A stretch of DNA of 24,335 bases from an uncultured Gammaproteobacteria bacterium (GTDB taxonomy: Bacteria; Patescibacteriota; Microgenomatia; CAZUUL01), in the NCBI GenBank assembly GCA_964623155.1, contig CAZUUL010000002.1, forward strand, positions 1 to 24,335, given 5' to 3'. Under the pieces are notes generated by a model, which worked only from the letters and a program-made list of their open reading frames with translations, searched no databases and was not told the origin of the DNA. Shown one piece after another: positions 4,417 through 17,066 of this stretch. Position 1 is the stretch's first letter, and the number at the start of each line of letters is the position of its first letter. The position numbers were made by a program, and so were the translations under genes.

Positions 4417-4734
4417 TTATATAACCTTTTTGATTTCTTCTTCAAACTTCTGTTTTGGCTGCGCGCCGATAAACTGACTCATCACATTTCCCCCCTTAAA
4501 TAGCATAAATGTCGGAATACTCATCACGCCATAGTTTGCTGCCAATTCCTGATGTTCATCAACATTGACCTTGCCTACTTTGATTTTACTGGCAAAATCT
4601 TTACCTATCTCATCAACAGTGGGTTCGACAATTTTACAGGGATTACACCACGGCGCCCAAAAGTCCACCAACACTGGAATGTTTGACTTTAACACCTCTT
4701 GTTCAAAATTATCTTTCGTCAGAACAACTGCCAT
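4417..4734 (-). CDS. trxA: thioredoxin
   Basis: VLVDFWAPWCNPCKIV, SIPTFMLFKGG. ATG at 4734 gives 105 aa. Confidence 0.93.
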   Translation of the reverse strand: MAVVLTKDNFEQEVLKSNIPVLVDFWAPWCNPCKIVEPTVDEIGKDFASKIKVGKVNVDEHQELAANYGVMSIPTFMLFKGGNVMSQFIGAQPKQKFEEEIKKVI

Positions 4735-4830
4735 AGTAATTCCATTGTAACAGGTATTCTTGCAAGGGAAAAGTAGCAAGTTGATATAGCTTTGTGAACA
4801 TGCTACAGTGAAATACGTAGCCAATTTATC

Positions 4831-7044
4831 ATGAAAAACTATTTGCAAGAAATAACCTCAAAAATCAAAGACAATAAGAGGTGGTGGGTTATTCTTACTC
4901 TCTTGCTTGCTTTTTTTGTGATTGTTGTTAGTCTTTTTTCAGGCAAGAAAACCTCCTTCTTAATCGGAACACTGCCTACTCCATCTATCAAACGCCAACC
5001 CTCAAAATTCCCTACTCCCACTCCCACCCCTGCGCCTAAAGTATACATTGAAACCTATGAAACTCGTGCACCGCTTCCACTCTTGCCAGACAACGTACGA
5101 ACTTACACAATAAAAACGAATTTTTCTCCTGAAGAGGTCAAAGTAGTTGGCAATAAGCTCGGTCTTAACCAATATCAACAACCTACTCGCCAGTATGCAC
5201 TTATGTCCAATACAGACAACCCACAAAACTACGGATTGTTGGCATTTAATCGCACCAGCGGCGAAGCAGTCTTTCAGTCCTATGGCAATCATAGAATAGC
5301 ATCAGCAGAGCAGGGAGAAAAAACAGCTATAGCCCAAGAATTTCTTTCCCATCTTGGGCTGATTGATACCACCGTTGTCTGTCGCTGGAGCTATGAGCGA
5401 AGAGATATCCCGCAGGTAACATTTGTTGAATGTCGAAGAGATTGGAGTTTGGTTGGTTTTCCAATTCTCAACCCAGAAGGTGTACTGAATATTTCTGAAA
5501 CGACACCTCTAAGTCAGATTGTTCTGGGACAGACAACAAATACCCAGACCAATGACCCAGGAAAAAACCGGCCGAACGAATTTAATACCGCCACCGTTGC
5601 CATCAATCAGGACGGCCACATCCTCGGCTTTCACTCTAATATTCGGCAAATTGTAGAAACGCATGACATTTCATCAAATAATAACCTCCTTACCCCAGAA
5701 GAAGCATTGACTAACTTTCAAAACCATAAAGCAGCTCGCTCGCTCATCAGCGTAGCGGGTTTGGGCTATACCAACTACAATCTTGTTTACCCTAACAATC
5801 AAGCCAAGGCCCAAAAAGCAACCATCACCGATTTTATCCTCTTTTACCCAGAAAAACTTCCCAAGTTTCCCCAAAGCGCTCTTGAACCATACTATCTGGT
5901 GCGAGGAACAAGCCGTTTGGATTCGGGGTACCTTGCTAATTTTATTGAAGTGGTAGCTGCGCTAAAGAATAGCAAATCAATATCAGACTTTAATCTTCCA
6001 TCTCAAGGACAGGTTGCTGGTGCCACGTTTGACGTGGCTGGTGTTTCAACCTCTCTTGCTCAAGATGAACGAAGTATTAAGTTTGAATCATTCGAACCTA
6101 CTACGAATCCATCTCCACAGCCAACAGATACTCCACCCAGGCCAACACCAGCAACAACCACAACCTGTGATGTCAACACTAGTCAATTCAATCCAGTCAT
6201 CGAAGTTGAACCAGGCTTACGGATTGGTGTTATTGCTGATCGCGGTCCAGCCAGCATGCAAGGTCCGACCCTTGCACCCTCACAATTACCCTTTGCAGAT
6301 ACTGCCTGGTATTATCTCCCAGGAACTGGGGTAACCACAGAAAACCAGCTGCGGCAAGATATCGAACAGATTGCCAATTTTCTACTTTCTCAACCCAATG
6401 TCCCCCAAGGCTACCGATTGTTTGATTGGTCGGTGATTCTACAGACATTTTTGAACAATATGGCAGCAGGTTTCAACCAATGCCCAATCCTTATTAGCGG
6501 TTGGTCACCGACTCTTTTTGTCTCTGGAAAACCCCATACCCAGCTGACAATTCGTGTCAATAGCAACCTCACCTATGTGGATACACCAGCAAGTGATGGT
6601 TGGTGGCATGTCAGGGTGCAGGATAATAGTAGTCTATCAGTCAATGGCTTTAACCGACCATTCCTCTACTATGAGTATGAACCAGTTCAGTTTAGCAGAC
6701 CAAAAACTGGCTGGATAATACAAAAAAATGCTATTAATCAATTTGCTAAAGATCTATCATCCCAATTAGCCCTCTTACCCCAAGAGGCGGACAGACTTGT
6801 CTTTGAACTTAATCACGCTGCATATAATGTAACTTCAGATATGCTTTTTATTGGTCTGATTGATCAGAGAGAAATTGATGAAAAACTCCCTTTGACCATT
6901 TCTCCTCCACCCGAATCAGTCAAACGCCACCATTTCTACGTTGGCAAAGCAGATGCTCAAACAGCTATCCAATCTCCTATCCTTACTCCTGTTGAGCGAA
7001 GAGGATTGACATTGCTTGAGTTGGGAGCCAATGGGCATCCATAA
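4831..7044 (+). CDS. large membrane-anchored surface protein (paralogue 1): TM, P/T linker, extracellular domain, Cys-bounded variable segment, C-terminal KPVIYLYP-type domain
   Basis: N-terminal TM; clear homology to 7044-8537, 17932-20076 and 23510-end; C-terminus has FLYYEY, GWII, IDEKLPLTISPPP as in the uncharacterised KPVIYLYP-type domain. Confidence 0.75.
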   Translation: MKNYLQEITSKIKDNKRWWVILTLLLAFFVIVVSLFSGKKTSFLIGTLPTPSIKRQPSKFPTPTPTPAPKVYIETYETRAPLPLLPDNVRTYTIKTNFSPEEVKVVGNKLGLNQYQQPTRQYALMSNTDNPQNYGLLAFNRTSGEAVFQSYGNHRIASAEQGEKTAIAQEFLSHLGLIDTTVVCRWSYERRDIPQVTFVECRRDWSLVGFPILNPEGVLNISETTPLSQIVLGQTTNTQTNDPGKNRPNEFNTATVAINQDGHILGFHSNIRQIVETHDISSNNNLLTPEEALTNFQNHKAARSLISVAGLGYTNYNLVYPNNQAKAQKATITDFILFYPEKLPKFPQSALEPYYLVRGTSRLDSGYLANFIEVVAALKNSKSISDFNLPSQGQVAGATFDVAGVSTSLAQDERSIKFESFEPTTNPSPQPTDTPPRPTPATTTTCDVNTSQFNPVIEVEPGLRIGVIADRGPASMQGPTLAPSQLPFADTAWYYLPGTGVTTENQLRQDIEQIANFLLSQPNVPQGYRLFDWSVILQTFLNNMAAGFNQCPILISGWSPTLFVSGKPHTQLTIRVNSNLTYVDTPASDGWWHVRVQDNSSLSVNGFNRPFLYYEYEPVQFSRPKTGWIIQKNAINQFAKDLSSQLALLPQEADRLVFELNHAAYNVTSDMLFIGLIDQREIDEKLPLTISPPPESVKRHHFYVGKADAQTAIQSPILTPVERRGLTLLELGANGHP

Positions 7045-8537
7045 TGAAGATACGTCTTATAATTGTTAGTAGTCTGTGTCTTGCTGTGCTTATAACCTTG
7101 CTTGTAAGCCAAACCCCACCTTTCTCTCCCCGTCTTAGACGCCTATTTTTTTCCAAATCGCTTGCTCCATACCTTGCTGATATGGTTCCACCTTCTCTTA
7201 ATTTTGATAATAAACCAAACAATGTTCCCGCTGCCCAGCATCTAGATATCAAACACTATATCCTTCAAACTTCTCTACCCAAAGCAACTGATGCCAGCAC
7301 CATCTATGAATTTAAACACTTGAAACGCGAGGATGCCATAGATTTTGCTAAGCGACTGCTGGGAGAAAACCCTAACGTCCGCGACCAAGGCCAAGAGCTT
7401 ATCATCAGCTCAAAAGACAAACAAGATGCAATACTGGTAATTGACCAAGTAACTGGTATGTTCTCCTATAAAGCCAAAAATCCTCCCCCTGTCCTGTCTC
7501 TTCCCAAAGACGGCAATCCTGCTGCTGTAGTAGCTAACTATTTACGGGAAAAACAATTAATTGATGATACGGTTGCTGCCACAGCCTACTATCGAACAAG
7601 TCAAAACTCGCAGGCTTTCTTTGTTGAATTTCACCGACTGTGGGAACACGTAGGCGCTCCCATTATCAACGTTGCCGGTATCCTCAATACTTCTCTTCCC
7701 CTGGATAATCTCTCGCTCACTTTTTATGATAACAACCAAACAAGCGATCAACCTCGGCGCAACGGGTTTAATACCTTAACAGCCATGGTGAGTGATGATG
7801 GAAGAGTGCTTGGCATCACTTCAACCTTGCGTACCATTGCAAAAAAACAAACTCTCTCGGCTTCTGGATTCTCACTTCTTGATCCGCAAAAAATTATTGC
7901 TGAATTGAAAAAAAATGGTTTTCTTTTAGGCTATGCCGTAGCAAAAAGTCCCTCTAGCTCATTTACCAATCTTTACTCAAATAATCAAGTCAAAATCACT
8001 AATGCCCATATTACTGATATTGTTCTTGTATATGAAGAAAAACCTCTCGGTGTTCCAGAGCGATTTCTTATACCTACCTATATTATTCGCGGCACAGGGA
8101 CTAGTGAAGCAGGTGAGACGGCATTTACCCAAACTGTCCCAGCCCTTGAGGTTGAAAGTGCTTTTCCTCCTCCGGCAGAAGCCCAAACCCAAGCTCCAGG
8201 GTTAAAATTTGGCAGCTATGATCCAGAATCAACTCGGCTTAATGAGGAAGCAAAAACTCCTGAGATATCTCCTCCACTGATTGCTGTTTCGCTGCGTTCA
8301 CAAACAGCTGGTTGTCAGGCAATTGATCAGGCTACGAATATGACTTATGATCCAAGCGATCGTCTTTTTGTGCCTGGAATCGGAACGCTGGTCATGTTTC
8401 GTTCAATCCCTCCCATAGCTAACCAAGTCTTTTTTCAATCACCGACTCCCAACCTAGTGGCTAATGCCCAGGGATTACAAATGACAATCGAAGGTATCGA
8501 AATCACTTCCCCCTGCCTAATCATGCCGGCAAATTAA
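7044..8537 (+). CDS. membrane-anchored surface protein (paralogue 2) lacking the C-terminal domain
   Basis: Start overlaps the upstream stop (TAATG); shares FVEFHRLW, PIINVAGILN, RRNGFNTLT, PTYIIRGT with the paralogues. Confidence 0.75.
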   Translation: MKIRLIIVSSLCLAVLITLLVSQTPPFSPRLRRLFFSKSLAPYLADMVPPSLNFDNKPNNVPAAQHLDIKHYILQTSLPKATDASTIYEFKHLKREDAIDFAKRLLGENPNVRDQGQELIISSKDKQDAILVIDQVTGMFSYKAKNPPPVLSLPKDGNPAAVVANYLREKQLIDDTVAATAYYRTSQNSQAFFVEFHRLWEHVGAPIINVAGILNTSLPLDNLSLTFYDNNQTSDQPRRNGFNTLTAMVSDDGRVLGITSTLRTIAKKQTLSASGFSLLDPQKIIAELKKNGFLLGYAVAKSPSSSFTNLYSNNQVKITNAHITDIVLVYEEKPLGVPERFLIPTYIIRGTGTSEAGETAFTQTVPALEVESAFPPPAEAQTQAPGLKFGSYDPESTRLNEEAKTPEISPPLIAVSLRSQTAGCQAIDQATNMTYDPSDRLFVPGIGTLVMFRSIPPIANQVFFQSPTPNLVANAQGLQMTIEGIEITSPCLIMPAN

Positions 8538-8540
8538 GAC

Positions 8541-8578
8541 TCCTTCCGAGGTGTCCTAGCTAGTACACATCGGAGGTG
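8541..8578. repeat. CACC-N5-GGTG doublet repeat, copy 1
   Basis: TCCTTCCGAGGTG, 12 nt (TCCTAGCTAGTA), CACATCGGAGGTG, starting 4 nt after a stop codon. Confidence 0.6.
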
Positions 8579-8651
8579 TATGGACCTCTAAACCGTTATT
8601 ATAGACCCCTCAAGGACTTGTTGCTTAGGTCATTTTTGTGGTATATTTAGG

Positions 8652-8870
8652 TTGATGAATATTCTTTACACACAACAAACCAGAGATTTTCAAGGCAAGT
8701 ATTTGGCGGTGAGTAAAAATAAAATAATAGCTTCAGGGAAAAGCGCGGCAGAAGCATTTAATTCGGCAAAAAGAATTCTGACCAAGGGTAAAAAAGTAGA
8801 GGGAGTTTACTATATTCCGCGAAAAAAAGATTTACTTACCGCGCTATGCGCTTTCCCTACTACCAAATAA
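8652..8870 (+). CDS. small DUF5678-like protein
   Basis: FQGKYLAV...KIIASGKSAAEAF pattern; overlaps the downstream protease gene; TGGTATATT just upstream. Confidence 0.65.
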   Translation: MMNILYTQQTRDFQGKYLAVSKNKIIASGKSAAEAFNSAKRILTKGKKVEGVYYIPRKKDLLTALCAFPTTK

Positions 8871-9253
8871 CTGTCAAGGATTTCGCGCCAATTATTCCCA
8901 TAAAGATTCAGGGTCCTAAAGGCTGGTTAGAATTTGAAGCATACATTGATTCTGGAGCGAGTGTTAGTATTTTTCACGCAGACAGGGCCGAAATTTTAGG
9001 CATAGATATCCAGGATGGTGACTCACTGTATCTGACTGTTGGCGACGGTGGACTTTTGGAAGTTTATCTTCATAAAGTAACTGTTGAATTGGCAAGTGAG
9101 CAATTCAGTTCAACCATAGGCTTCTCAGATCACTTGGGAGTAGGATTTAATCTTTTAGGCAGAAAAAGTATTTTCGAGCACTTCAGAATTTGTTTTGACG
9201 ATCTAAATCGCTTTATAGAACTTACACCTATATCCAAGACGGTAAAAAAGTAA
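8846..9253 (+). CDS. retropepsin-like (clan AA) aspartic protease
   Basis: AYIDSGAS catalytic motif and NLLGR motif; single-domain size. Confidence 0.85.
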   Translation: MRFPYYQITVKDFAPIIPIKIQGPKGWLEFEAYIDSGASVSIFHADRAEILGIDIQDGDSLYLTVGDGGLLEVYLHKVTVELASEQFSSTIGFSDHLGVGFNLLGRKSIFEHFRICFDDLNRFIELTPISKTVKK

Positions 9254-9268
9254 CCGTCGGCGAAAAGA

Positions 9269-9305
9269 TACCCTGAAGGTGCCAAGCTAAACCACCCTAA
9301 GGGTG
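9269..9305. repeat. CACC-N5-GGTG doublet repeat, copy 2
   Basis: TACCCTGAAGGTG, 11 nt (CCAAGCTAAAC), CACCCTAAGGGTG. Confidence 0.6.
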
Positions 9306-9360
9306 TGTGAAGATCACATGTTATAATAAACCTATAGTTTAAAAGATCGGAGGTGAAATT

Positions 9361-9648
9361 TTGATGAGACACGAAATTAAATCTATGATTCCTAGGATGG
9401 AGGCACATAAAATAGGTCAAAGAGAGTTTGGGGATGGAGAGTCAATGTGGCGAGGATGGAGTAGGGGATTATGGACTGACAGAGTACATACCCATACTCA
9501 AGTAGCCCTAGGCACTAAGCGAACAATTACCATTATGGGAAAAGGCTTTGATGGAGGAACTGCTACTGAAATAAAATACGCTCGCGAGGATGATAACGGA
9601 GTTAAAGGATATATTGTTATTTTTAATAAACAGCCAACAGTTGAGTAA
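9361..9648 (+). CDS. hypothetical protein
   Basis: 95 aa ORF; TG-T-TATAAT promoter near 9319-9327 and GGAGGTG just upstream; ATG at 9364. Confidence 0.55.
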   Translation: MMRHEIKSMIPRMEAHKIGQREFGDGESMWRGWSRGLWTDRVHTHTQVALGTKRTITIMGKGFDGGTATEIKYAREDDNGVKGYIVIFNKQPTVE

Positions 9649-9692
9649 CACGAGAATAAAACCATTATCAAAGATGTGAAGTTATGAAGTTA

Positions 9693-9727
9693 CACCTGGG
9701 ACGTGTTTTTCTCTTTACACCTAGGGA
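9693..9727. repeat. CACC-N5-GGTG doublet repeat, copy 3
   Basis: CACCTGGGACGTG, 12 nt, CACCTAGGGA. Confidence 0.6.
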
Positions 9728-9735
9728 AAATGGGG

Positions 9736-9798
9736 TTATTTCTTTTCCAGCGGAATATTGATGAAGGGCAAAGACGAGCTGCCGGCGACTTGAGGAAG
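9736..9798 (-). pseudogene. orphan 3' end of an SPFH/prohibitin gene
   Basis: Translates LPQVAGSSSLPFINIPLEKK*, 17/20 identical to the C-terminus encoded at 12599-12661. Confidence 0.8.
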
Positions 9799-9804
9799 AT
9801 GATA

Positions 9805-10043
9805 CTATTTGGGTTTAATTTTTTGCAGTAACCTTTCGCTTAACTGAAGGTAAAAATGGATGAGATCATCTTTGTTTAATGGTTTTAGCATGCGAGGAAA
9901 ACGAGTAAGTTTAGAAACGTCAACGATAATTGTGGCACAGAAAGAGCAGTACCACCTGTAAGAAAAAATGTTTTACCCGCCAGTGTGGCCAAAAATTGCC
10001 GGATTATTTGTTTTTGCAATGGCGTAAGGCTCGCTTGATTCAT
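9805..10043 (-). pseudogene. AbiEii-type nucleotidyltransferase toxin with a large internal deletion
   Basis: N-terminus MNQASLTPLQKQII...FFLTGGTALS joined out of frame to C-terminus ...TRFPRMLKPLNKDDLIHFYLQLSERLLQKIKPK*; both parts align with 14769-15425. Confidence 0.75.
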
Positions 10044-10049
10044 TATGGA

Positions 10050-10301
10050 TTATTTAGACCAAACAGTAAGTGCACGTTGCCAGGCGCGAGCAATAGATTT
10101 TTTAAGTTTTAGTTTTGGGAAAACTGATTTTAGCTGCTTTAATGTGATGTATTTCCAAATCTCAGCAAACGGTGCACTTTCTAACAAACGGGCAATCGCC
10201 CAGCGCTTAGTACTATCGCCCTCCCGGTTGTTTATGATGTTTTTTAGCTGATTGGAAGTTAGCTGATAATCCCAGAAATATGGTAAATATTTGTTGCTCA
10301 T
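10050..10301 (-). CDS. small AbiEii partner (DUF6922-like putative antitoxin)
   Basis: YFWDY motif, IARLLE; directly upstream of the AbiEii remnant, the same arrangement as 15371-15613. Confidence 0.65.
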   Translation of the reverse strand: MSNKYLPYFWDYQLTSNQLKNIINNREGDSTKRWAIARLLESAPFAEIWKYITLKQLKSVFPKLKLKKSIARAWQRALTVWSK

Positions 10302-10592
10302 AAACTATATTTTACTCTTCTAAAGAGTAAATGGTAGTTTTTCACACACCTCGTTCACACACCTGGTGTGAAATACCTGAAGGTGAAGCTGTCGGAGAAG
10401 ACCCTCTTCGGTCACGAGTCCACCAACACTATCGTTATGATGATATTCAACCGTTTCTGTTTCCATACTACGCGCAAGAGTAGTAATTAATACAGGAATT
10501 TTAACCTTTATATTATATACTATGAGACAATATTTTGAGGAAATGGGGTTATGGTGAATTCGCACCTGAAGTTATGGTATAATTTTTCCATA

Positions 10593-10865
10593 ATGACAAA
10601 GAGTACAAGCGTAAAGGTAATCAATATCCAGGATAAATTAGCCCTCTTTAATGAATACTGGTCTCCCAAGATTGTGGGAGAGCTCAATAACCATAAAGTG
10701 CAGGTTGTGAAGCTCAAAGGCGAATTTGTCATCATTCCTCACCTGATTGAGCACAAACCGGAAGCGCCCGAGGAAATTCACATCATCCTTATTGAACCCA
10801 AAAGCACGGTAAATACTGGCAATGTGGTTTCAAAGCATACCGTCCAAACCGCCCAAGAGTTTTAA
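10593..10865 (+). pseudogene. cupin-domain protein with in-frame deletion of the metal-binding core
   Basis: KLALFNEYWSPKIVGELN...KLKGEFV runs directly into IIPHLIEHKP...EPKSTVNTGNV; the usual WHxHxxEDE...GEF segment is missing. TGGTATAAT at 10575-10583. Confidence 0.7.
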
Positions 10866-11070
10866 AACCTCCACCCACAAGATAGCAGATTACTAATCTT
10901 TTCTCAAAACTAATCGCTAAAAGCAATAGAGATTCTATTTGCGACGACGCCACAATTCGCGTGATCGAGAAATCGATTGACTGTCGGCAACAACTTGAGA
11001 TTCGGCCACAATGGCCAAGCAGAGAGCCTTGGGAGAGAGATGATCGCTAAAGCTACTCGTCAAAACCATG

Positions 11071-11517
11071 TTAACGTCGGGGTTTTGGTCCTCGTGATCG
11101 TCGAGGAGTACCAGCCTCTTGCAGGCGAAGGCTCACTTCCCATTTACTAAGATCGTATCGTTCAGCAATCTGCTCAAGAGTAAGCCCTTGTAAATAGAGT
11201 TCCGAAGCAAGTTTTGGGGTAAGCTCAGGAGCTTTGTCATGACCAGGACCTCCTTCAAGTAGGTTTATGTTTTTACCACTTTCTCTTAGTTTCCTTTCCA
11301 GGGTAACATGAGACATAGAAAGTTTACTACTTGCTTTCCTGAGACTGCCTTCTTCTTTATAGACTCTCTCAAGCTCATCTGGATCATAGGGAATTGGCCG
11401 CCTTCCTGGTAGATTTCCTTCAATTCCCTGCCGTTGCCTTTCTCTTTTCACATGTGTGGTAGAGACGTCGAAATACTCTGCTATCTCATTTATTGACCAT
11501 CCTGGCTTGCTCTTGAC
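11071..11517 (-). pseudogene. 5'-truncated multi-HTH protein
   Basis: The frame stays open 22 codons upstream of the called GTG (GWSINEIAEYFDVSTTHVKRE, a further HTH) with no start codon, up to a TAA at 11518-11520; two more HTH-like repeats follow. Confidence 0.55.
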
Positions 11518-11549
11518 TTAGTTAATAGTTTATAGTAAACTATTAACTA
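11513..11549 (+). promoter_or_regulatory. promoter overlapped by a perfect 14-bp inverted repeat (putative operator)
   Basis: TTGACT (11513), 17 nt, TAAACT (11536); TAGTTAATAGTTTA-tag-TAAACTATTAACTA spans 11519-11549 and ends on the A of ATG. Confidence 0.75.
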
Positions 11550-12547
11550 TGAAAAGCTCTACTAGAGATAGAATCATTGCCTACATTACATATCATGGAC
11601 AAGCCAGAGTCTATGATTTAGTACGCGAACTGCGGATTAGTAATGTTGCTGTTCATAAGCAACTGAACCAGTTACTAAAAGCAGGCCTTTTAACGCGCGA
11701 AGGGAAGCCGCCAATTGTTTTTTATACGTTTCCTTCAAAAGAAAAGGTTAGCTCCATTGAAACAGAAACCTTACCAGAGGATACTGAAGGCCTCATTGCC
11801 GAAAACTTTCTCTCAATTACTCCTGATGGAACATTGCTCTATGGCCTAGATGGATTTAATTACTGGGTAGAAAAATATGGAAAGAAGACGCCGTATGGAA
11901 AGATCGCACATGAATATGTGGCTCTTTGGAAAGAGCAAAAGAAGCATTTCGACCAAGGAGGTTGGATTGATGCAACTGTTAAATTAACACGTTCCTTTTC
12001 AGAGGCATATGTAGATCACTTATTATTTGAAGATGTATACAGCTATAAGGTGTTTGGCAGAACCAAGCTTGCAAAACTTGTTATGTATGCAAAGCAAGTA
12101 GGCGCTCGAGAACTTATAGATCAGATTGCTGCTCTAGCTAAACCAGTCATAGAAAGGATTATTAGGTCATACTCAATTAATGCTATTGCGTATATTCCGC
12201 CTACCGTACCAAGACCCTTACAGTTTATGGATGAGTTTGCCTCACAGCTTAGACTGCCTTTACCAGAAATTGATCTGGTGAAGGTTATTCCTGGAGACAT
12301 TCCTATTCCTCAAAAGACACTAGCAGGTCTTCATGAGAGAATGATTAATGCACGTGATTCAATTTATTTAAAAAATACTACAGAGCTTTCTTATGCCAAC
12401 GTTTTACTGCTTGACGACGTAGTAGGTTCTGGCGCCTCCTTCCATGAAACGGCAAAGAAATTAAAAACAGCGAAGGCAGGAAAAAATATTGTCGCATTTG
12501 CACTGGTAGGGGCAATAAAAGGGTACGATGTTATTCGGGAGATATAA
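11549..12547 (+). CDS. winged-HTH plus phosphoribosyltransferase-fold (ComF-like) protein
   Basis: N-terminal wHTH (LVRELRISNVAVHKQLNQLLKAGLL); C-terminal PRPP-binding loop VLLLDDVVGSGAS. Confidence 0.8.
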   Translation: MKSSTRDRIIAYITYHGQARVYDLVRELRISNVAVHKQLNQLLKAGLLTREGKPPIVFYTFPSKEKVSSIETETLPEDTEGLIAENFLSITPDGTLLYGLDGFNYWVEKYGKKTPYGKIAHEYVALWKEQKKHFDQGGWIDATVKLTRSFSEAYVDHLLFEDVYSYKVFGRTKLAKLVMYAKQVGARELIDQIAALAKPVIERIIRSYSINAIAYIPPTVPRPLQFMDEFASQLRLPLPEIDLVKVIPGDIPIPQKTLAGLHERMINARDSIYLKNTTELSYANVLLLDDVVGSGASFHETAKKLKTAKAGKNIVAFALVGAIKGYDVIREI

Positions 12548-12556
12548 TTTTATGAG

Positions 12557-12591
12557 CACCTGGGAGGTGATTTAGCTAGGACACCTAGGGA
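12557..12591. repeat. CACC-N5-GGTG doublet repeat, copy 4
   Basis: CACCTGGGAGGTG, 12 nt (ATTTAGCTAGGA), CACCTAGGGA, between convergent stops. Confidence 0.65.
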
Positions 12592-12598
12592 TAAATGG

Positions 12599-13471
12599 TT
12601 ATTTCTTCTCCAGAGGAATATTGATAAACGGTAGCGACCCACTCCCAACTACCTGAGGCATTTTTCCATCCCACTTTTTTATGGCTTCAAGCTGGAGAAA
12701 TTCTTGCGTGAGGGTTTGCTTCTGCAAAGCCTGTGCTTCAGCCAAGCCTTTAGCTTCTGCAATCTTTGCCTCTGCCCGTTGAGAGGCTTCTTTGACCTCA
12801 AATTCTGCTTGTTTTACCCGCTGCTCGGCAATAACTTTATTTTCAATTGCTTTGGAGTATTCAGGCGAAAAATAGACAGCCCGGAGTAATAATTTATCCA
12901 AGATAATATGCTTTTCTTTCACAAGTTCAGTAATTTCTTTCTGCATGACAGATTCTGCTTCTTGGCGCTTCTCTGAATAAATGGCTGTAGCACTGTAGCG
13001 GCTTATCACCATTCGAATTTGACTGCGGGTTATGGTGCGGATTATTTTATCGATGTAATCAACGCCAATCGTCTTCCAAATCACTGGCGCTGCACCTGGT
13101 TCAATACGGAATAAGACAGAGGCATCAACTTTTACCTGTTAACCATCACTGGTCGGAGCATCCAGTGAGTCGTCACGACGCAACGCTCCCTCATCGGGCG
13201 CTGCTGACATGGTATATTCCTGAATTCTGGTATCAAACAGTTGCGCACTTTGCCAAAAGGGGATGAGGATATTTATCCCTTCATGCAGTTCGTACGGCAA
13301 TACTCCCCTACCTCGATCATATATTGCTCCAACAAAACCAGGCGGAACAAAGATCACAAAAGCGCGCAAGAAAATAAGTAGAAGTATTGTCCCAGTCACC
13401 CAGGGGAGAAAACGAGTAAATCGTCCAAAGGTGGTAAAGTCATAAGTGGTCGCAAATCGTGGCACTGGCAC
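12599..13471 (-). pseudogene. SPFH/prohibitin (band 7) family gene split by one in-frame TAA
   Basis: 13139-13471 and 12599-13084 are in the same frame and read ...PTSDG*QVKVDASVLFRI...; N-terminal TM, VPPGFVG, EAIKKWDGKMP. Confidence 0.8.
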
Positions 13472-13515
13472 ATGCCTATCGTAGGCGATTTAGAGTACAG
13501 AGTCAAGCAGATGAT

Positions 13516-14640
13516 TTATGAGAACAAGGCAATGTAATCTAAATAAGAGTATATCCGATTTCTCCGTTGTCCTGTTGTTTCTTTGAGTATTCCCAAGTTC
13601 TCGAATTTTGATACGAGAACTAAAGCATTAGGATTGGATAACGATGTAATCTGTTCGATATCTTTTACTCTAACAATAGGAGTTCGATACAAGCTATTAA
13701 GAAGCAGCATTCCTTTTTCCGCAGACCTTCCAAGACTTGCAACCTTAGCTACATGATTCTCTCGAAGCTTTATTATCTTCCTTGCTGTTTCAACTGCTTT
13801 ATCGGAAGTTGTTATAACTCCTTCGAGGAAGAACTTTAACCAGCCTTCAATATCATCTTTTTCTCTAAAGTCATTTAACTTATCGTAATATGCTTGTCTA
13901 TGCATTCTAAAGAAGTCTGATACATACAGCAATGGCTTTCGTAAGATACCTTGCTGGTAGAGGTAAAACGCTATAAGCAGTCTTCCAATTCTGCCATTAC
14001 CATCTAAGAATGGATGAATTGTTTCAAACTGCGCATGAATTAAACCAGTTTTTATAAGGATTGGCACGGGTGAAGCATGATGCAGGTACTCTTCTAAGTT
14101 ACCCATAAGCTTCATAACTTCTGTTTTGGGTGGAGGAATAAACACAGCAGTTTGCAAACTTGCGCCTCCTACCCAATTTTGGGAAGTCCTAAACTCTCCA
14201 GGATGTTTGTGTTCTCCTCGTACTCCTTGTAGCAACTTTTCATGAATTTCTCGAATAAGGCGTAAAGAGAGAGGTAGTGTTTTTAATCGTTCTATACCAT
14301 AGTTCATGGCGGCAATGTAGTTAAGTACCTCATGGACGTCTTTATGTATCTCTGCATCTTCTATTCGTGCTTCTGCTTTGAGTACATCCTCAAATGTGGC
14401 TTGGGTGCCTTCTATTTGACTTGAGAGTGTGGCTTCTTTTCGTACATACATTAGAATAAAGAGATCCACATGAGGAAACATATCCGCGACACTGTCTAAT
14501 CTTCCCATAGCAAGATCAGCCTTAGAAAGAAGGCTCTGAAGATCTGCATCCATTCTTACCTCAAATGGCAAAGGGTTAGACACAAATGCCTTATACCGTA
14601 ATTCACCATGGAGCTGGTTAAGATAAATTCCTGTCCTCAT
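13516..14640 (-). CDS. Fic-domain protein with N-terminal extension and C-terminal wHTH
   Basis: Canonical HPFLDGNGRIGR motif; EATLSSQIEGT, PGEFRTSQNW. Confidence 0.92.
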   Translation of the reverse strand: MRTGIYLNQLHGELRYKAFVSNPLPFEVRMDADLQSLLSKADLAMGRLDSVADMFPHVDLFILMYVRKEATLSSQIEGTQATFEDVLKAEARIEDAEIHKDVHEVLNYIAAMNYGIERLKTLPLSLRLIREIHEKLLQGVRGEHKHPGEFRTSQNWVGGASLQTAVFIPPPKTEVMKLMGNLEEYLHHASPVPILIKTGLIHAQFETIHPFLDGNGRIGRLLIAFYLYQQGILRKPLLYVSDFFRMHRQAYYDKLNDFREKDDIEGWLKFFLEGVITTSDKAVETARKIIKLRENHVAKVASLGRSAEKGMLLLNSLYRTPIVRVKDIEQITSLSNPNALVLVSKFENLGILKETTGQRRNRIYSYLDYIALFS

Positions 14641-14648
14641 AGCTAGTT

Positions 14649-14713
14649 AAATCGTAGATATAAATATTCATATCTACGGTTAGTAGTATAAATCGTAGAT
14701 AGTAATCAGTCAA
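14649..14713 (-). promoter_or_regulatory. Fic promoter with three operator-like boxes
   Basis: TTGACT (14713-14708), 17 nt, TATACT (14690-14685); AATCGTAGATA boxes at 14650 and 14691 plus an inverted one-mismatch copy at 14671. Confidence 0.65.
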
Positions 14714-14768
14714 TAGGGGCGAGCCCATGGATATGGATCGTACTTCAAAGTGAGGATTTCTTCTGGTG

Positions 14769-15425
14769 CTATGGTTTAACCACACTTGCTCCAAGTCTTT
14801 TTGCCTGTTTACGAAAAAATTCTTTTAACTCAGTGATTTTCACCGGTGTAACCATCTTTGGTAGCATATCAAAATCCTCTACCCCCAAAAAATTACCTGC
14901 TAAAAGCAATGGTTCGAGTTCCATACTAAATTTTATACGAACACCTTCTATTAAATCCCAAAGACTAAATGTTCTAAGGAGAAAGTATAAATCAACAAAA
15001 TCCTTAATCTCTCCTCTTTGCACAATGGTAAGAAGTTTATTCACTGCAATATCAAGTAGACTATCAATAGCTAATCCATGATAATCTTTACCAACCCTCA
15101 AGCGCTTGTATGGATAATAACCAAAGTCTACCTTCACCTGCACACTGGGGAAGGTAAGCATACAGATATATACAGGCCCGACTAGCCGGGCATTGAAGGA
15201 AAAATTATGTTTCTTTGCCCATTCGGACAAAAGAGTGAAAATTGATTGCGTATCAAACTTTTTTTCACTAAAAAAGTCGAGATCTTCTGAGTATCGATGA
15301 CCAAGGTAATAAGTAGCCAAGGCTGTCCCGCCCGTAAAGTAAAATTGCTGCCTTAACAAATCGTCCTTAACTACCCAATCCAAAATAAGGGTTTGCTCTT
15401 TGGTGAGGATTGGTATTTTCCCCAT
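14769..15425 (-). CDS. AbiEii-type nucleotidyltransferase toxin (type IV TA)
   Basis: FYFTGGTALA...HRYSEDLDF, KLLTIVQRGEIKDFVDLY. Confidence 0.88.
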   Translation of the reverse strand: MGKIPILTKEQTLILDWVVKDDLLRQQFYFTGGTALATYYLGHRYSEDLDFFSEKKFDTQSIFTLLSEWAKKHNFSFNARLVGPVYICMLTFPSVQVKVDFGYYPYKRLRVGKDYHGLAIDSLLDIAVNKLLTIVQRGEIKDFVDLYFLLRTFSLWDLIEGVRIKFSMELEPLLLAGNFLGVEDFDMLPKMVTPVKITELKEFFRKQAKRLGASVVKP

Positions 15426-15613
15426 ATTAATAGTTCAAATAGCCGGCGTTGTGAGCGAAACAAGTGCAGTTGATCCCAATATTTTTTAACAAGGCTAAGT
15501 TTTATTTTTTCGCCTTTATCCGGACCATAGTTAATCATTCGTTCCAGAATGAGAATCCGTCCCCGCTCAGATTTCTTTAATTCATTGATATTGTAATCCC
15601 AAATATGAACCAT
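15371..15613 (-). CDS. small AbiEii partner (DUF6922-like putative antitoxin)
   Basis: HIWDY motif, LERMINYG; ATG at 15613 downstream of TG-C-TATAAT; overlaps the toxin start. Confidence 0.65.
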   Translation of the reverse strand: MVHIWDYNINELKKSERGRILILERMINYGPDKGEKIKLSLVKKYWDQLHLFRSQRRLFELLIWGKYQSSPKSKPLFWIG

Positions 15614-17066
15614 AACAAGAGTAATTATAGCAAAAATCCGCCATAATATTTTGTTTAACTGCCAAGACACTTACTTTATCTTCATATAAAATCTCCCAGT
15701 TTGGAAGCACGCGAATCATTTGCACCAAAGGTAGGTTGGGTGGGAGAAGAATACCTTCAACTTGGTACTGATCAAAAAGTTCCTGCCAGTGCGGACCAAG
15801 GTATACTATTTGATGATAATCATCAAGGAAAAACCGATCCCCGACCACTTTAAACACATCCATGATCCCATTCTCAAATACTTTCCGCTCTGGCAACTGC
15901 CAAACCAAATACCCGCCCCAGTTAAAGTAGTTAATCAGCCGTTCAGGGACAGGATGAGTTTTGATATAGTTAATAGCACCATAGGGATAGTTTTGCCGAT
16001 ACGAGGCTAAAAAAGCCGGATTATTCATCATCCGCAAACTGGTATCAACGTTGTAAACTCCCCGACTAAGTATTGCAAGGGAAAAAGCCGCCAAAGCCAC
16101 AGTTGGCGGAGAAAAAAGCGATAAGCGGAACCTAATTAGCAGCGTTTGGCGAATAAATGTAGCCACCAGAGGTAAAAAGAGAGTAAAAAAGAACAAACTC
16201 ATCCTGACACTTTTAAGGGAAAAGAAGAAGAAAAGCAGCGAAAGCAAAAGCTCTGTCAGATTAAGGCGATTCTTTTTTATAAAAAAAAGTCCGTAACAAG
16301 CAATAACCAATGCGCCAACCAAAACATGGATGCCTCCCCGACTAAAGAGCGGCAGCCATTCCATGTTAAACTGTTGATTAAAAGGGTTTGAGGGAATGGC
16401 TGTGACAGATTGATAAATGCTAAAACCATAGGGATTAACTAGCGTAGCCAGAATTGAGAGTATTGTCACTGCAACCAAATTCTTAACCATCGTCCACATT
16501 TTGTCTCCTTTAATTGCAATACAAGTTTTTATCAACTCACACATAGTCACTCCGGCCAAAAAAACTAACCCGCTAAAAAAACCCCCGTGGAGGTTCACCC
16601 AAAGGACAAAAAGGCCGGGAACTAGATAGATACTTGGCCCGCCTTTTTTAAAATAACTGTAAACAAAACTAACCACAAGGCTAAAAAAAAGAAAACTTAC
16701 AACTTGCGGCCGGACACCAATTGAGGAAAAAATAATTGCTGCTGCCAGAAGCAGCAAGATTAGGGAGAAGAGTGACTGCCCCATCCGAAGATAAACAAAC
16801 CATAAACCAATACTGATCAAAAGGCTTACCCATACTGTAATTGCCAGCAAACCTGCCTGTTTATAAAACCAGGCGAAAATGACTTCTGATAACCATGAAT
16901 GGTAAATGTAGGGGTAATCAGGCAGAGAAAAAGAGAAAAGGTCGCTCCTGGGAATGGTATGAGTACTAATAATAAACTTTCCTACTCCCAGATGGACACC
17001 TAAGTCTGGATCATCAGGAAACTGAAAAACCAGAAGAAAAATACCTAAAAAGAGAAGTAGTTTTAT
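15582..17066 (-). CDS. polytopic membrane protein, GT-C-like glycosyltransferase; probable ATA start at 17066
   Basis: The frame is open 80 codons upstream of the track start and includes DDPDLGVHLGVG...YHSWLSEV; also VRPQ, WVNLHGGF, NYFNWGGYL. AGGAGG lies 8 nt before ATA. Confidence 0.7.
   Translation of the reverse strand: MKLLLFLGIFLLVFQFPDDPDLGVHLGVGKFIISTHTIPRSDLFSFSLPDYPYIYHSWLSEVIFAWFYKQAGLLAITVWVSLLISIGLWFVYLRMGQSLFSLILLLLAAAIIFSSIGVRPQVVSFLFFSLVVSFVYSYFKKGGPSIYLVPGLFVLWVNLHGGFFSGLVFLAGVTMCELIKTCIAIKGDKMWTMVKNLVAVTILSILATLVNPYGFSIYQSVTAIPSNPFNQQFNMEWLPLFSRGGIHVLVGALVIACYGLFFIKKNRLNLTELLLSLLFFFFSLKSVRMSLFFFTLFLPLVATFIRQTLLIRFRLSLFSPPTVALAAFSLAILSRGVYNVDTSLRMMNNPAFLASYRQNYPYGAINYIKTHPVPERLINYFNWGGYLVWQLPERKVFENGIMDVFKVVGDRFFLDDYHQIVYLGPHWQELFDQYQVEGILLPPNLPLVQMIRVLPNWEILYEDKVSVLAVKQNIMADFCYNYSCYGSYLGLQYQ

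What the first reader, a model, noticed from the sequence alone, without database searches (positions are those of the whole stretch)
9693..12661. Second displaced gene tail: SPFH C-terminus repeated 2.9 kb downstream around a cargo block
Seen: 9736-9798 encodes LPQVAGSSSLPFINIPLEKK* versus MPQVVGSGSLPFINIPLEKK* at 12599-12661 (17/20 aa, 17/63 nt mismatches, mostly third position). Both are followed by the same CCATT..CCCTAGGTGT-N-CAC(C/G)TCCCAGGTG element. Between them lie HTH-PRTase, an HTH remnant, the cupin and an AbiEii pair. This is the same architecture as the 19900/20770 repeat, suggesting a general integrase-free route by which this lineage adds defence cargo behind conserved gene ends (inference).
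Basis: partly seen in the sequence, partly recalled or inferred. Interest (0 to 1): 0.65.

Follow-up and report, generated by a model that had tools for sequence, protein, structure and literature searches.

The report
Stranded SPFH gene end beside REP
A 20-codon leftover copy of the end of a membrane-scaffold (SPFH) gene, with the short dispersed repeat that follows it, lies 2.9 kb downstream of the full gene in an ultra-small groundwater bacterium. It is a real but fairly ordinary recombination scar with no integrase nearby.

Summary
Tail A (9736-9798, minus strand) and tail B (12599-12661) match at 17/20 residues. They differ at 17/63 bases, 12 of them third codon positions. Only these two tails, among 140 SPFH homologues, end in LEKK*. 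A single 3.1-kb contig from an independent assembly spans both copies, so this is not an assembly artefact.

The shared "hairpin" is not special to the duplication. It is a REP-like dispersed repeat with a third copy after an unrelated gene at 8544-8578. It occurs on at least 120 metagenome contigs, where inverted copies flank a 225-aa IS200-like (RAYT-type) Y1 transposase gene.

The two tails are as diverged at synonymous sites as SPFH genes of different species. Tail A has no aberrant residue. It is therefore the recently stranded end of a second, allelic SPFH gene, cut off at an illegitimate joint next to a decayed AbiEii toxin gene.

Most likely this is 3'-end displacement by homologous plus illegitimate recombination with DNA of a related lineage. 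The mechanism is inferred, not shown.

The "general route for defence cargo" idea is only partly supported. The layout recurs (twice here, once in a relative), always same-strand and downstream, with no recombinase domain found in the window. But the cargo is mostly pseudogenes, and 20 related SPFH loci show no orphan tails.

The parts
8544..8578 (-). REP-like repeat copy C. It lies 6 nt after the stop of the unrelated 497-aa surface-protein gene (7044-8537).
   Evidence: Pattern search. nhmmer with a profile of 125 metagenome copies, E = 6.6e-9. Inverted repeat I1.
9672..9692 (.). Possible weak extension of the repeat beyond REP-A, matching 12539-12556 at about 12/18 positions with a 4-nt indel.
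   Evidence: Alignment A1. Weak, and not part of the REP family consensus.
9693..9727 (+). REP-like repeat copy A. Box 1 has one mismatch (ACGTG) and the loop is unrelated to that of copy B.
   Evidence: E = 1e-10.
9736..9798 (-). Orphan SPFH 3' end (tail A): 20 codons plus the stop codon. A stop lies 2 codons upstream in the same frame and there is no gene body.
9799..10043 (-). Decayed AbiEii-like toxin fragment (N-terminal FFLTGGTAL motif, then a frameshift and stops). It is cut off exactly at the tail A joint.
   Evidence: Three-frame translation. BLASTP against the intact AbiEii at 14769-15425, E = 0.002. No Pfam hit.
10050..10301 (-). Small ORF upstream of the AbiEii fragment. It is weakly similar to the DUF6922-like ORF that precedes the intact AbiEii.
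   Evidence: E = 0.07. No family hit.
10551..10865 (+). Cupin with an internal deletion of about 25 residues.
   Evidence: phmmer against PDB 3d82, E = 7.5e-17. It aligns as two pieces, 4-47 and 73-102 of the 102-residue chain.
11071..11511 (-). Multi-HTH ORF remnant. The frame is open to 11511 with no start codon until the GTG at 11451.
   Evidence: Sigma70_r4 and ECF-type HTH matches below the curated cut-offs.
11549..12547 (+). Intact winged-HTH plus PRTase gene. The PRTase domain is of the PsyrT/ShosT/ComF type. Its stop codon lies 9 nt from REP-B.
   Evidence: Pfam, NCBIfam, PADLOC PsyrT E = 2.3e-13. It has 156 homologues of 330-334 aa, up to 76% identical, in varied genomic contexts.
12557..12591 (+). 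REP-like repeat copy B. Four metagenome contigs carry the identical 35 bases.
   Evidence: (E = 5e-12). Many other contigs in the same samples match only this stretch and carry different flanks.
12599..13471 (-). Parent SPFH/Band 7 gene. Tail B is 12599-12661. The frame is broken by an in-frame TAA at 13136-13138.
   Evidence: Pfam Band_7 on both halves. Translation. Orthologues have Gln at that codon.
19898..20063 (+). Second example, upstream copy: the true 3' end of the 388-aa gene (18910-20076).
20090..20780 (+). Second example, cargo: an intact MNT (20090-20425) and HEPN (20343-20780) pair. The HEPN stop codon lies inside the downstream repeat copy.
   Evidence: Pfam. The HEPN C-terminus has the natural length compared with 8 homologues.
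20768..20934 (+). Second example, downstream orphan copy of the 388-aa gene's last 55 or so codons (90% nt, 86% aa identity).

Best explanation
Tail A, with its REP-like repeat, is the stranded 3' end of a second, allelic (xenologous) SPFH gene.

DNA from a related lineage that also carried the REP behind SPFH recombined into this locus. One joint was illegitimate. It lies at 9798/9799 and fuses the last 20 SPFH codons to a decayed AbiEii gene. As a result, two allelic gene ends now bracket a 2.74-kb block.

The most likely route is 3'-end displacement without a dedicated integrase. That could be a Campbell-type single crossover of a circular fragment that carried a gene end plus neighbouring genes. 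It could instead be homology-facilitated illegitimate recombination (HFIR, a homologous anchor at one end and a non-homologous joint at the other) after DNA uptake.

Shown: the fragment, its allelic character, the joint, and the absence of a recombinase domain in the window ORFs scanned.

Inferred: the route, and which tail is the resident one.

The REP-like repeat is a passenger of the duplicated segment. It is a member of a dispersed family tied to RAYT-like Y1 transposases. At most it served as a patch of conserved sequence.
For: 1. Allelic origin.
- 12 of 17 differences are at third codon positions (P = 0.002 against 1/3; P = 0.03 against a model in which tail A drifts neutrally).
- Third-position identity between A and B is 6/17. 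Either tail against orthologues from other species averages 5.6-5.9/17.
- Every residue of tail A is one seen in real orthologues. The truncation is therefore recent relative to the divergence.

2. Sister status. Only A and B share the 6-nt insertion that gives LEKK*, the CC(CC)ATTT spacer and the REP. This holds against 120 database homologues and 22 genome loci.

3. Illegitimate joint. Homology stops at 9798, where a frameshifted AbiEii fragment begins.

4. No Pfam recombinase or transposase domain in any window ORF scanned.

5. Geometry. All 7 tail-only fragments found in 1.18 Mb lie on the same strand and downstream of the parent gene. The head-only hits look like N-terminal regions shared between full-length neighbouring genes rather than orphans, judged from coordinates only. 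The window has two cases and relative L015 has one.

6. Single SPFH copy in each of 22 related genomes' loci.

7. Patescibacteria are reported to keep homologous-recombination and competence genes (PMC12455944). The circle plus single-crossover model was proposed for rhs tip displacement (PMC2935791). HFIR is documented in naturally transformable bacteria (PMC6382021).
Against: - No empty site, donor allele or polymorphism was found. The only runs holding this DNA show one fixed form. The closest SPFH in 5.8 billion proteins is 79% identical.
- A and B share at most 11-nt identical runs and about 73% identity. That is poor substrate for RecA-dependent crossover inside the repeat. A crossover would have to lie further up in the gene body or in the 46-nt better-conserved stretch that runs from codon 13 through the first REP box.
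- The bracketed block is mostly decayed genes. That fits old resident DNA as well as imported cargo.
- A segment-wise search for mosaicism in SPFH-B was uninformative.
Confidence: 0.55

Rival explanations
1. Deleted paralogue. The lineage long carried two complete SPFH genes, each followed by the REP. A recent deletion running from inside AbiEii to codon -20 of one copy left tail A. No import was involved.
For: - The joint truncates both AbiEii and SPFH, as a single deletion would.
- The shared LEKK*, spacer and REP fit a duplication within the lineage.
- The region is full of decayed genes.
- Even the surviving SPFH carries a nonsense codon.
Against: - No related genome locus shows a second SPFH within 10 kb.
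- Saturated synonymous divergence would require both copies to stay under selection for a very long time and then one to be lost recently.
- Random decay of paralogues does not predict that all tail-only fragments are same-strand and downstream with no orphan heads.
Confidence: 0.2
2. Degenerate integrative island of the e14/phage-21-in-icd type. An element with its own integrase inserted site-specifically into the SPFH 3' end, brought a substitute gene end, and later lost its integrase.
For: The layout is the same as icd/icd' around e14: an intact gene using an element-borne end, with the displaced end on the far side (PMC6379469). The multi-HTH remnant at 11071-11511 could be a piece of a lost recombination-directionality or DNA-binding protein.
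Against: - No integrase or recombinase domain in the block or in any other window ORF scanned.
- No clear identical core. The longest shared runs are 11 nt.
- The far boundary is a truncated pseudogene, not a clean att boundary.
- The second example (MNT-HEPN, 0.7 kb) has no room for an integrase.
Confidence: 0.1
3. REP/RAYT-driven event. The Y1 (HUH) transposase that recognises the CACCT/AGGTG repeat, or recombination between REP copies, moved or joined REP-flanked segments. This would have duplicated the REP together with about 70 nt on its gene side.
For: - The repeat unit is centred on a REP.
- In other contigs the same REP family brackets toxin-antitoxin cassettes (L093, L141) and is duplicated together with its flanks (L093: 119 nt at 96%; L071: REP plus the end of a 162-aa gene at 91%).
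- REPs mark the left edge, the middle and the right edge of the 4-kb gap between the 497-aa gene and SPFH.
Against: - The flank shared by A and B is native SPFH coding sequence present in REP-less orthologues. It is not shared by other REP copies.
- The divergence is allelic, not that of a recent copy.
- The second example and L015 have no REP.
- There is no RAYT gene in the window, and the own genome could not be searched.
Confidence: 0.1
4. Chance resemblance or chimeric assembly.
For: The source is a metagenome-assembled genome at about 5-10x depth.
Against: E-values of 1e-8 to 1e-11 within the window. Independent contigs from four runs cross every junction with zero differences, one of them spanning both repeats.
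Confidence: 0.01

Closest known systems
C-terminal (3'-end) displacement at rhs loci (Jackson et al. 2009, PMC2935791)
   Same: An intact gene is followed on the same strand by 5'-truncated copies of its own 3' region. The proposed route is integrase-free: an episomal circle carrying a gene fragment plus downstream genes inserts by one homologous crossover and shunts the old end downstream.
   Different: At rhs loci the displaced tips are variable toxin domains with their immunity genes, and the recombining core sequences are near-identical. Here the duplicated end is the conserved part and is only 73% identical. The bracketed genes are unrelated to SPFH function.
Prophage e14 / phage 21 in icd of E. 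coli (Hill et al. 1989, as summarised in PMC6379469)
   Same: Insertion in the 3' end of a protein gene. The incoming DNA supplies a substitute end with conservative changes, and the original end persists as a pseudo-fragment at the far side.
   Different: e14 carries an integrase and uses defined att core sites. Neither was found here.
[quoted passage not shown] 2002; cited through PMC6382021)
   Same: A one-sided homologous anchor plus an illegitimate joint at a short microhomology allows foreign genes to be added without a recombinase. The ragged joint inside AbiEii fits this.
   Different: As I recall the cited experiments, which I did not read here, they mostly gave insertion with deletion. 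Duplication of the recipient end is not the typical outcome. No anchor or microhomology can be identified here without the parental sequences.
REP sequences with REP-associated tyrosine transposases (RAYT; Nunvar 2010; Bertels and Rainey 2011, PMC3337134)
   Same: This comparison concerns the "hairpin" only. It is short, extragenic and dispersed, sits close to gene ends, and flanks a Y1 (HUH) transposase gene in inverted orientation.
   Different: The motif is a CACCT-N3-AGGTG mini-palindrome plus a third CACCT box, not a GC-rich REP. It does not fold better than shuffled sequence. The transposase scores below NCBIfam's RAYT cut-off (47 against 80 bits). The host is a Patescibacteria lineage, and my one search found no paper describing RAYTs there.

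Membership tests
3'-end displacement scar (integrase-free recombination) | An intact parent gene followed downstream, on the same strand, by a 5'-truncated copy of its own 3' end. | tested here: met
   Caveat: the parent carries a nonsense codon further upstream.
3'-end displacement scar (integrase-free recombination) | The two ends differ as alleles shaped by purifying selection, not as a decaying fresh duplicate. | tested here: met
   12/17 differences are at third positions. Synonymous sites are as diverged as between species. Tail A has no aberrant residue.
3'-end displacement scar (integrase-free recombination) | Close relatives show the empty site or alternative cargo at the same gene end. 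| tested here: inconclusive
   No relative is closer than 79-80% aa identity. What follows SPFH differs in every one of 15 species examined, but synteny is absent on both sides. Only one population form exists in public runs.
3'-end displacement scar (integrase-free recombination) | No recombinase encoded in the bracketed DNA. | tested here: met
   Pfam, NCBIfam and PADLOC scans of the bracketed ORFs. Pfam scans of the other window ORFs tested.
Integrase-borne island in a gene 3' end (e14/icd type) | An integrase gene next to one attachment site. | tested here: not met
Integrase-borne island in a gene 3' end (e14/icd type) | An identical core sequence at both boundaries. | tested here: inconclusive
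   The longest identical runs are 11 nt (ATCAATATTCC, AAGAAATAACC, TCCCTAGGTGT).
REP / RAYT system (for the shared motif) | A short repeat, dispersed and mostly extragenic. | tested here: met
   3 copies in 24 kb and at least 120 metagenome contigs. 28/113 copies lie inside ORFs against 89 expected. Copies are about 5-fold enriched within 30 nt of stop codons.
REP / RAYT system (for the shared motif) | The repeat flanks a Y1 HUH transposase gene in inverted orientation. | tested here: met
   Met on other contigs (L047, L059, L072, L088, L131, L135, L136). Pfam Y1_Tnp scores 30.7-36.5 bits (cut-off 23). NCBIfam REP_Tyr_transpos scores 47 bits, below its 80-bit cut-off. No such gene is in the window.
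REP / RAYT system (for the shared motif) | A matching RAYT gene in the same genome, as a single copy. | not testable with these tools
REP / RAYT system (for the shared motif) | A stable imperfect palindrome. | tested here: inconclusive
   5-bp arms around a 3-nt loop. Minimum free energies are no better than shuffles, with z-scores from -1.9 to +0.6.
SPFH / Band 7 protein (parent gene) | A Band_7 domain in one open frame. | tested here: not met
   Both halves match PF01145, but an in-frame TAA at 13136-13138 splits the gene. The TAA is present in independent contigs.
AbiE toxin-antitoxin pair (bracketed genes at 9799-10301) | An AbiEii nucleotidyltransferase domain with an upstream antitoxin. 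| tested here: not met
   No Pfam, NCBIfam or PADLOC hit. Only a 31-residue pairwise match to the intact AbiEii (E = 0.002). The frame is broken.

The most novel reading that the evidence does not exclude
REP-like repeats parked a few bases behind stop codons may serve as portable, conserved anchor sites. They could act as short homology, or as sites recognised by the RAYT-like Y1 enzyme. Such anchors would let diverged Patescibacteria lineages splice gene blocks in behind gene ends without an integrase. Stranded gene ends plus REP, and REP-bracketed toxin-antitoxin cassettes (L093, L141), would be its footprints.
Probability: 0.1. Interest if true: 0.7.

Novelty: new member of a known kind. 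Interest (0 to 1): 0.35.

Why it matters
Ultra-small CPR (candidate phyla radiation) / Patescibacteria genomes have few recognisable mobile-element genes, yet they carry variable defence and toxin-antitoxin islands. Stranded allelic gene ends are direct footprints of how such blocks are joined in, apparently by ordinary recombination with DNA of related lineages. Each well-documented scar helps show that this route operates in these genomes.

The case also corrects a tempting over-reading. The conserved "hairpin" is a REP-like repeat of a Y1-transposase family. It is not part of an insertion signal.

Tried and rejected
The genome-wide orphan-tail census and the search for a RAYT gene in this genome could not be done.
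- Segmental duplication of a larger block (antitoxin-AbiEii-Fic-SPFH): rejected. blastn and tblastx find no similarity beyond the roughly 125-nt repeat.
- The motif as an intrinsic terminator or stable hairpin: rejected. There is no T-run, and folding energies are no better than shuffles.
- The motif as a known RNA family: no Rfam match at E <= 1.
- The EKK* extension and spacer as part of the mobile repeat: rejected. Other REP copies, including identical ones, have unrelated flanks.
- PRTase neighbourhoods as a clue to a donor arrangement: the closest homologues (71-76% identical) sit beside giant proteins or tRNA genes, never beside SPFH or a REP.
- Mosaic structure of SPFH-B from segment-wise identity to 120 homologues: no signal, the family looks star-like.
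- Search for alternative alleles or empty sites in public runs: only four runs of one study hold this DNA, all with the same form.
- Closest HEPN homologues: too distant (54% or less) and on contigs too short for a context test of the second example.
- Heterogeneity of divergence along the tail (third-position identity 1/12 in codons 1-12 against 6/8 in codons 13-20, Fisher P = 0.004): partly explained by conserved ATC-AAT codons in orthologues, so it is kept only as a hint.
- Integron-type cassettes: considered because REPs bracket cassettes in L093 and L141. No integrase domain was found in the window ORFs scanned, and the repeat is tied to a Y1 transposase instead. attC features were not tested.

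Full report
**Source.** The window is bases 1164-25498 of contig JACPYJ010000059.1 of the groundwater MAG GCA_016196025.1. The nearest SPFH relatives are Candidatus Gottesmanbacteria and other Patescibacteria MAGs. Everything genome-wide had to be approximated with related loci.

**The observation.**
- On the minus strand, 9736-9798 encodes LPQVAGSSSLPFINIPLEKK* and 12599-12661 encodes MPQVVGSGSLPFINIPLEKK*.
- That is 17/20 residues and 17/63 base differences, of which 12 are at third codon positions.
- The match is highly significant within the window: tblastn E = 1e-8 and blastn E = 1e-11.
- Homology ends sharply at 9798/12661 on the gene side. On the other side it runs through the stop codon, a 7-8-nt spacer and a 35-nt motif, and perhaps about 18 nt further.
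- A single independent Logan contig of 3127 nt covers 9667-12793 without a difference. One contig in each of four runs crosses the 9798/9799 joint with no alternative form.
- The structure is therefore real and fixed in the sampled population.

**The parent gene.** The region 12599-13471 is a 290-codon SPFH/Band 7 gene (Pfam on both halves). It carries an in-frame TAA at 13136-13138. An orthologue, L015, has Gln at the corresponding codon, so a CAA-to-TAA change is the likely cause. An independent contig confirms the stop.

**The shared "hairpin" is a REP-like repeat.**
- The motif CACCTnnGAnGTG-N12-CACCTnGGRA occurs three times in the window. The third copy is inverted and lies 6 nt after the stop of an unrelated 497-aa gene.
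- In the same metagenomes, many other contigs match only the 35 bases of copy B and carry different flanks.
I estimated that only a handful of matches would arise by chance.
- About 20 of 132 copies lie 20-26 nt upstream of a roughly 225-aa gene beginning MPGRxIPLVxxxIYHVFNRG.
- That protein matches Pfam Y1_Tnp (IS200-like) above the gathering score. Its best NCBIfam match is "REP-associated tyrosine transposase", below the curated cut-off.
- Most such genes are flanked by the motif in inverted orientation.
- Copies are strongly extragenic (28/113 inside ORFs against 89 expected) and about five-fold enriched within 30 nt of stop codons.
- The motif has no Rfam family and does not fold better than shuffled sequence.
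- It is absent from 337 kb of related Gottesmanbacteria loci.
- This is the layout described for REP/RAYT systems (PMC3337134). Sharing the motif is therefore not in itself evidence for the duplication, and the motif is not an insertion signal.

**The two tails relative to each other.**
- Among 120 database homologues and 22 genome loci, only A and B end in LEKK*. All others end in LK*, LR* or similar. The difference is a 6-nt insertion. A and B also share the spacer and the REP, so they are sister alleles.
- Across the 17 conserved codons, however, their third positions agree at only 6/17. That is the same as either tail against orthologues of other species, which average 5.6-5.9/17.
- The excess of third-position differences is significant (P = 0.002 against equal rates). 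It is marginal (P = 0.03) even against a model in which A drifted neutrally.
- Every residue of A is one found in real orthologues.
- Reading: A and B diverged for a long time as parts of functional genes. A was cut from its gene body only recently.

**The joint and the bracketed DNA.**
- Immediately upstream of tail A, on the same strand, lies an AbiEii-like fragment with a frameshift and stops. It is preceded by a small ORF of the kind that precedes the intact AbiEii at 14769-15425.
- Next comes a cupin lacking about 25 internal residues.
- Next is a multi-HTH ORF without a start codon.
- Last is an intact winged-HTH-PRTase gene whose PRTase domain resembles those of the PsyrT and ShosT defence toxins.
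- The PRTase family is widespread in Gottesmanbacteria-like genomes. It is 330-334 aa long, up to 76% identical, and sits in unrelated contexts.
- No recombinase or transposase domain was found in the block or in any other window ORF scanned.
- The "cargo" is thus mostly a graveyard of decayed genes with one intact defence-type gene.

**Generality.**
- The second repeat (19898-20063 against 20768-20934, 90% identical) brackets an intact MNT-HEPN pair. The HEPN stop codon lies inside the downstream copy, and the HEPN protein has the natural length.
- I ran a protein-level survey of 153 fetched loci plus the window: 1.18 Mb and 864 ORFs of at least 150 aa.
  - It found 7 tail-only fragments, all on the same strand and downstream of the parent gene.
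  - The head-only hits look like N-terminal regions shared between full-length neighbouring genes, judged from coordinates only.
  - Clear CPR cases are the two in this window and one in relative L015. There a nuclease gene is followed by a 251-aa gene on the opposite strand (no family scan was run) and then by a 103-codon orphan tail with three stops.
  - Two cases in 24 kb exceeds the survey rate (Poisson P about 0.001-0.003).
- SPFH itself is not a hotspot. There are no orphan SPFH tails in 148 kb downstream of 20 orthologues.
- Synteny around SPFH is absent in all 22 loci tested. The first downstream gene differs among the 15 species examined and includes PMT, Fic, TsaD, arginase, MoxR, cupin, SET and nuclease genes.

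**Mechanism.**
- The features are: allelic tails, a ragged illegitimate joint, same-strand downstream geometry, no recombinase domain found in the window, and a single SPFH per related genome.
- These fit 3'-end displacement by recombination with DNA from a related lineage.
- One version is the circle plus single-crossover model proposed for rhs tips (PMC2935791). The other is homology-facilitated illegitimate recombination (PMC6382021). Patescibacteria are reported to retain competence and recombination genes (PMC12455944).
- Weak points:
  - No donor or empty site was found.
  - Identity inside the repeat is low: 73% overall, with identical runs of at most 11 nt. The best stretch is 46 nt, from codon 13 through the first REP box.
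  - It cannot be told which tail is the resident one.
- Rivals are a deleted resident paralogue, a decayed integrase island of the e14/icd type (PMC6379469) and a REP/RAYT-driven event. The last is suggested by REP-bracketed cassettes in L093 and L141 and by REP-plus-flank duplicates in L093 and L071.

**Earlier notes of this scan.** They report the same CACCT/AGGTG RAYT-linked repeats and many "displaced tail" scars in Patescibacteria. I treated them as leads. The RAYT link and the displaced-tail geometry were re-derived here independently.

**Verdict.** This is a real, well-anchored recombination scar of a known kind. The useful correction is that the conserved motif is a REP-like repeat. 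The mechanistic generalisation is plausible but unproven.

Noticed in passing
window 13136-13138 (minus strand): The parent SPFH gene carries an in-frame TAA where an orthologue (L015) has Gln, probably CAA to TAA. It splits the gene into 110-aa and 161/178-aa pieces. The stop is present in an independent Logan contig.
   Followed up: partly
L093 8206-10454; L141 2586-11324: In other CPR-like contigs the same REP family sits between successive small gene pairs that look like toxin-antitoxin cassettes by sequence (no family scan was run). Three to four same-orientation copies lie 0.7-1.5 kb apart. In L093 a 119-nt unit containing the REP is repeated at 96% identity.
   Followed up: partly
L015 1195-3029: Just downstream of the SPFH orthologue of a relative, a 213-aa nuclease-like gene is followed by a 251-aa gene on the opposite strand. 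After that comes a 103-codon orphan copy of the nuclease C-terminus (65% aa identity, three in-frame stops).
   Followed up: partly
L071 2191-2411 and 3730-3988: A REP plus the last 50 or so codons of a 162-aa gene that has an overlapping small upstream ORF (PIN-toxin-like by eye, not scanned) recur 1.55 kb apart at 91% identity. The second copy runs off the contig end, so it cannot be classed as an orphan or as a full paralogue.
   Followed up: partly
window 10551-10865: The cupin ORF aligns to PDB 3d82 in two pieces (chain residues 4-47 and 73-102). This indicates an in-frame internal deletion of about 25 residues.
   Followed up: partly
window 13516-14640: The Fic gene directly upstream of SPFH matches the PADLOC SoFic defence model over its full length (E = 7.5e-121). 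SPFH therefore sits inside a defence-rich stretch: SoFic, AbiEii, PRTase, MNT-HEPN and DUF3800.
   Followed up: no
window 11512-11556: A 21-nt-arm near-perfect palindrome (CTTGACTTAGTTAATAGTTTA / TAAACTATTAACTATGAAAAG) overlaps the start of the wHTH-PRTase gene. It could be an autoregulatory operator.
   Followed up: no
window 22574-22642: Rfam DUF3800-IX RNA (63.4 bits against a gathering score of 36.8) lies next to the DUF3800 gene at 22654-23280.
   Followed up: no
window 17865-20076: The 367-aa and 388-aa ORFs overlap by 59 nt in different frames. Together they align to the single 737-aa paralogue at 4831-7044, so they look like a split or frameshifted copy. A third paralogue starts at 23510.
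   Followed up: no
L060 4534-7707 compared with window 4417-16850: In one distant relative, the homologues of the thioredoxin gene (60% aa) and the 422-aa gene (36% aa) lie 1.3 kb apart in the same order and orientation. In the window they are 10.7 kb apart, with the surface-protein genes, the REP region, SPFH, Fic and AbiEii in between.
   Followed up: no
   Followed up: partly
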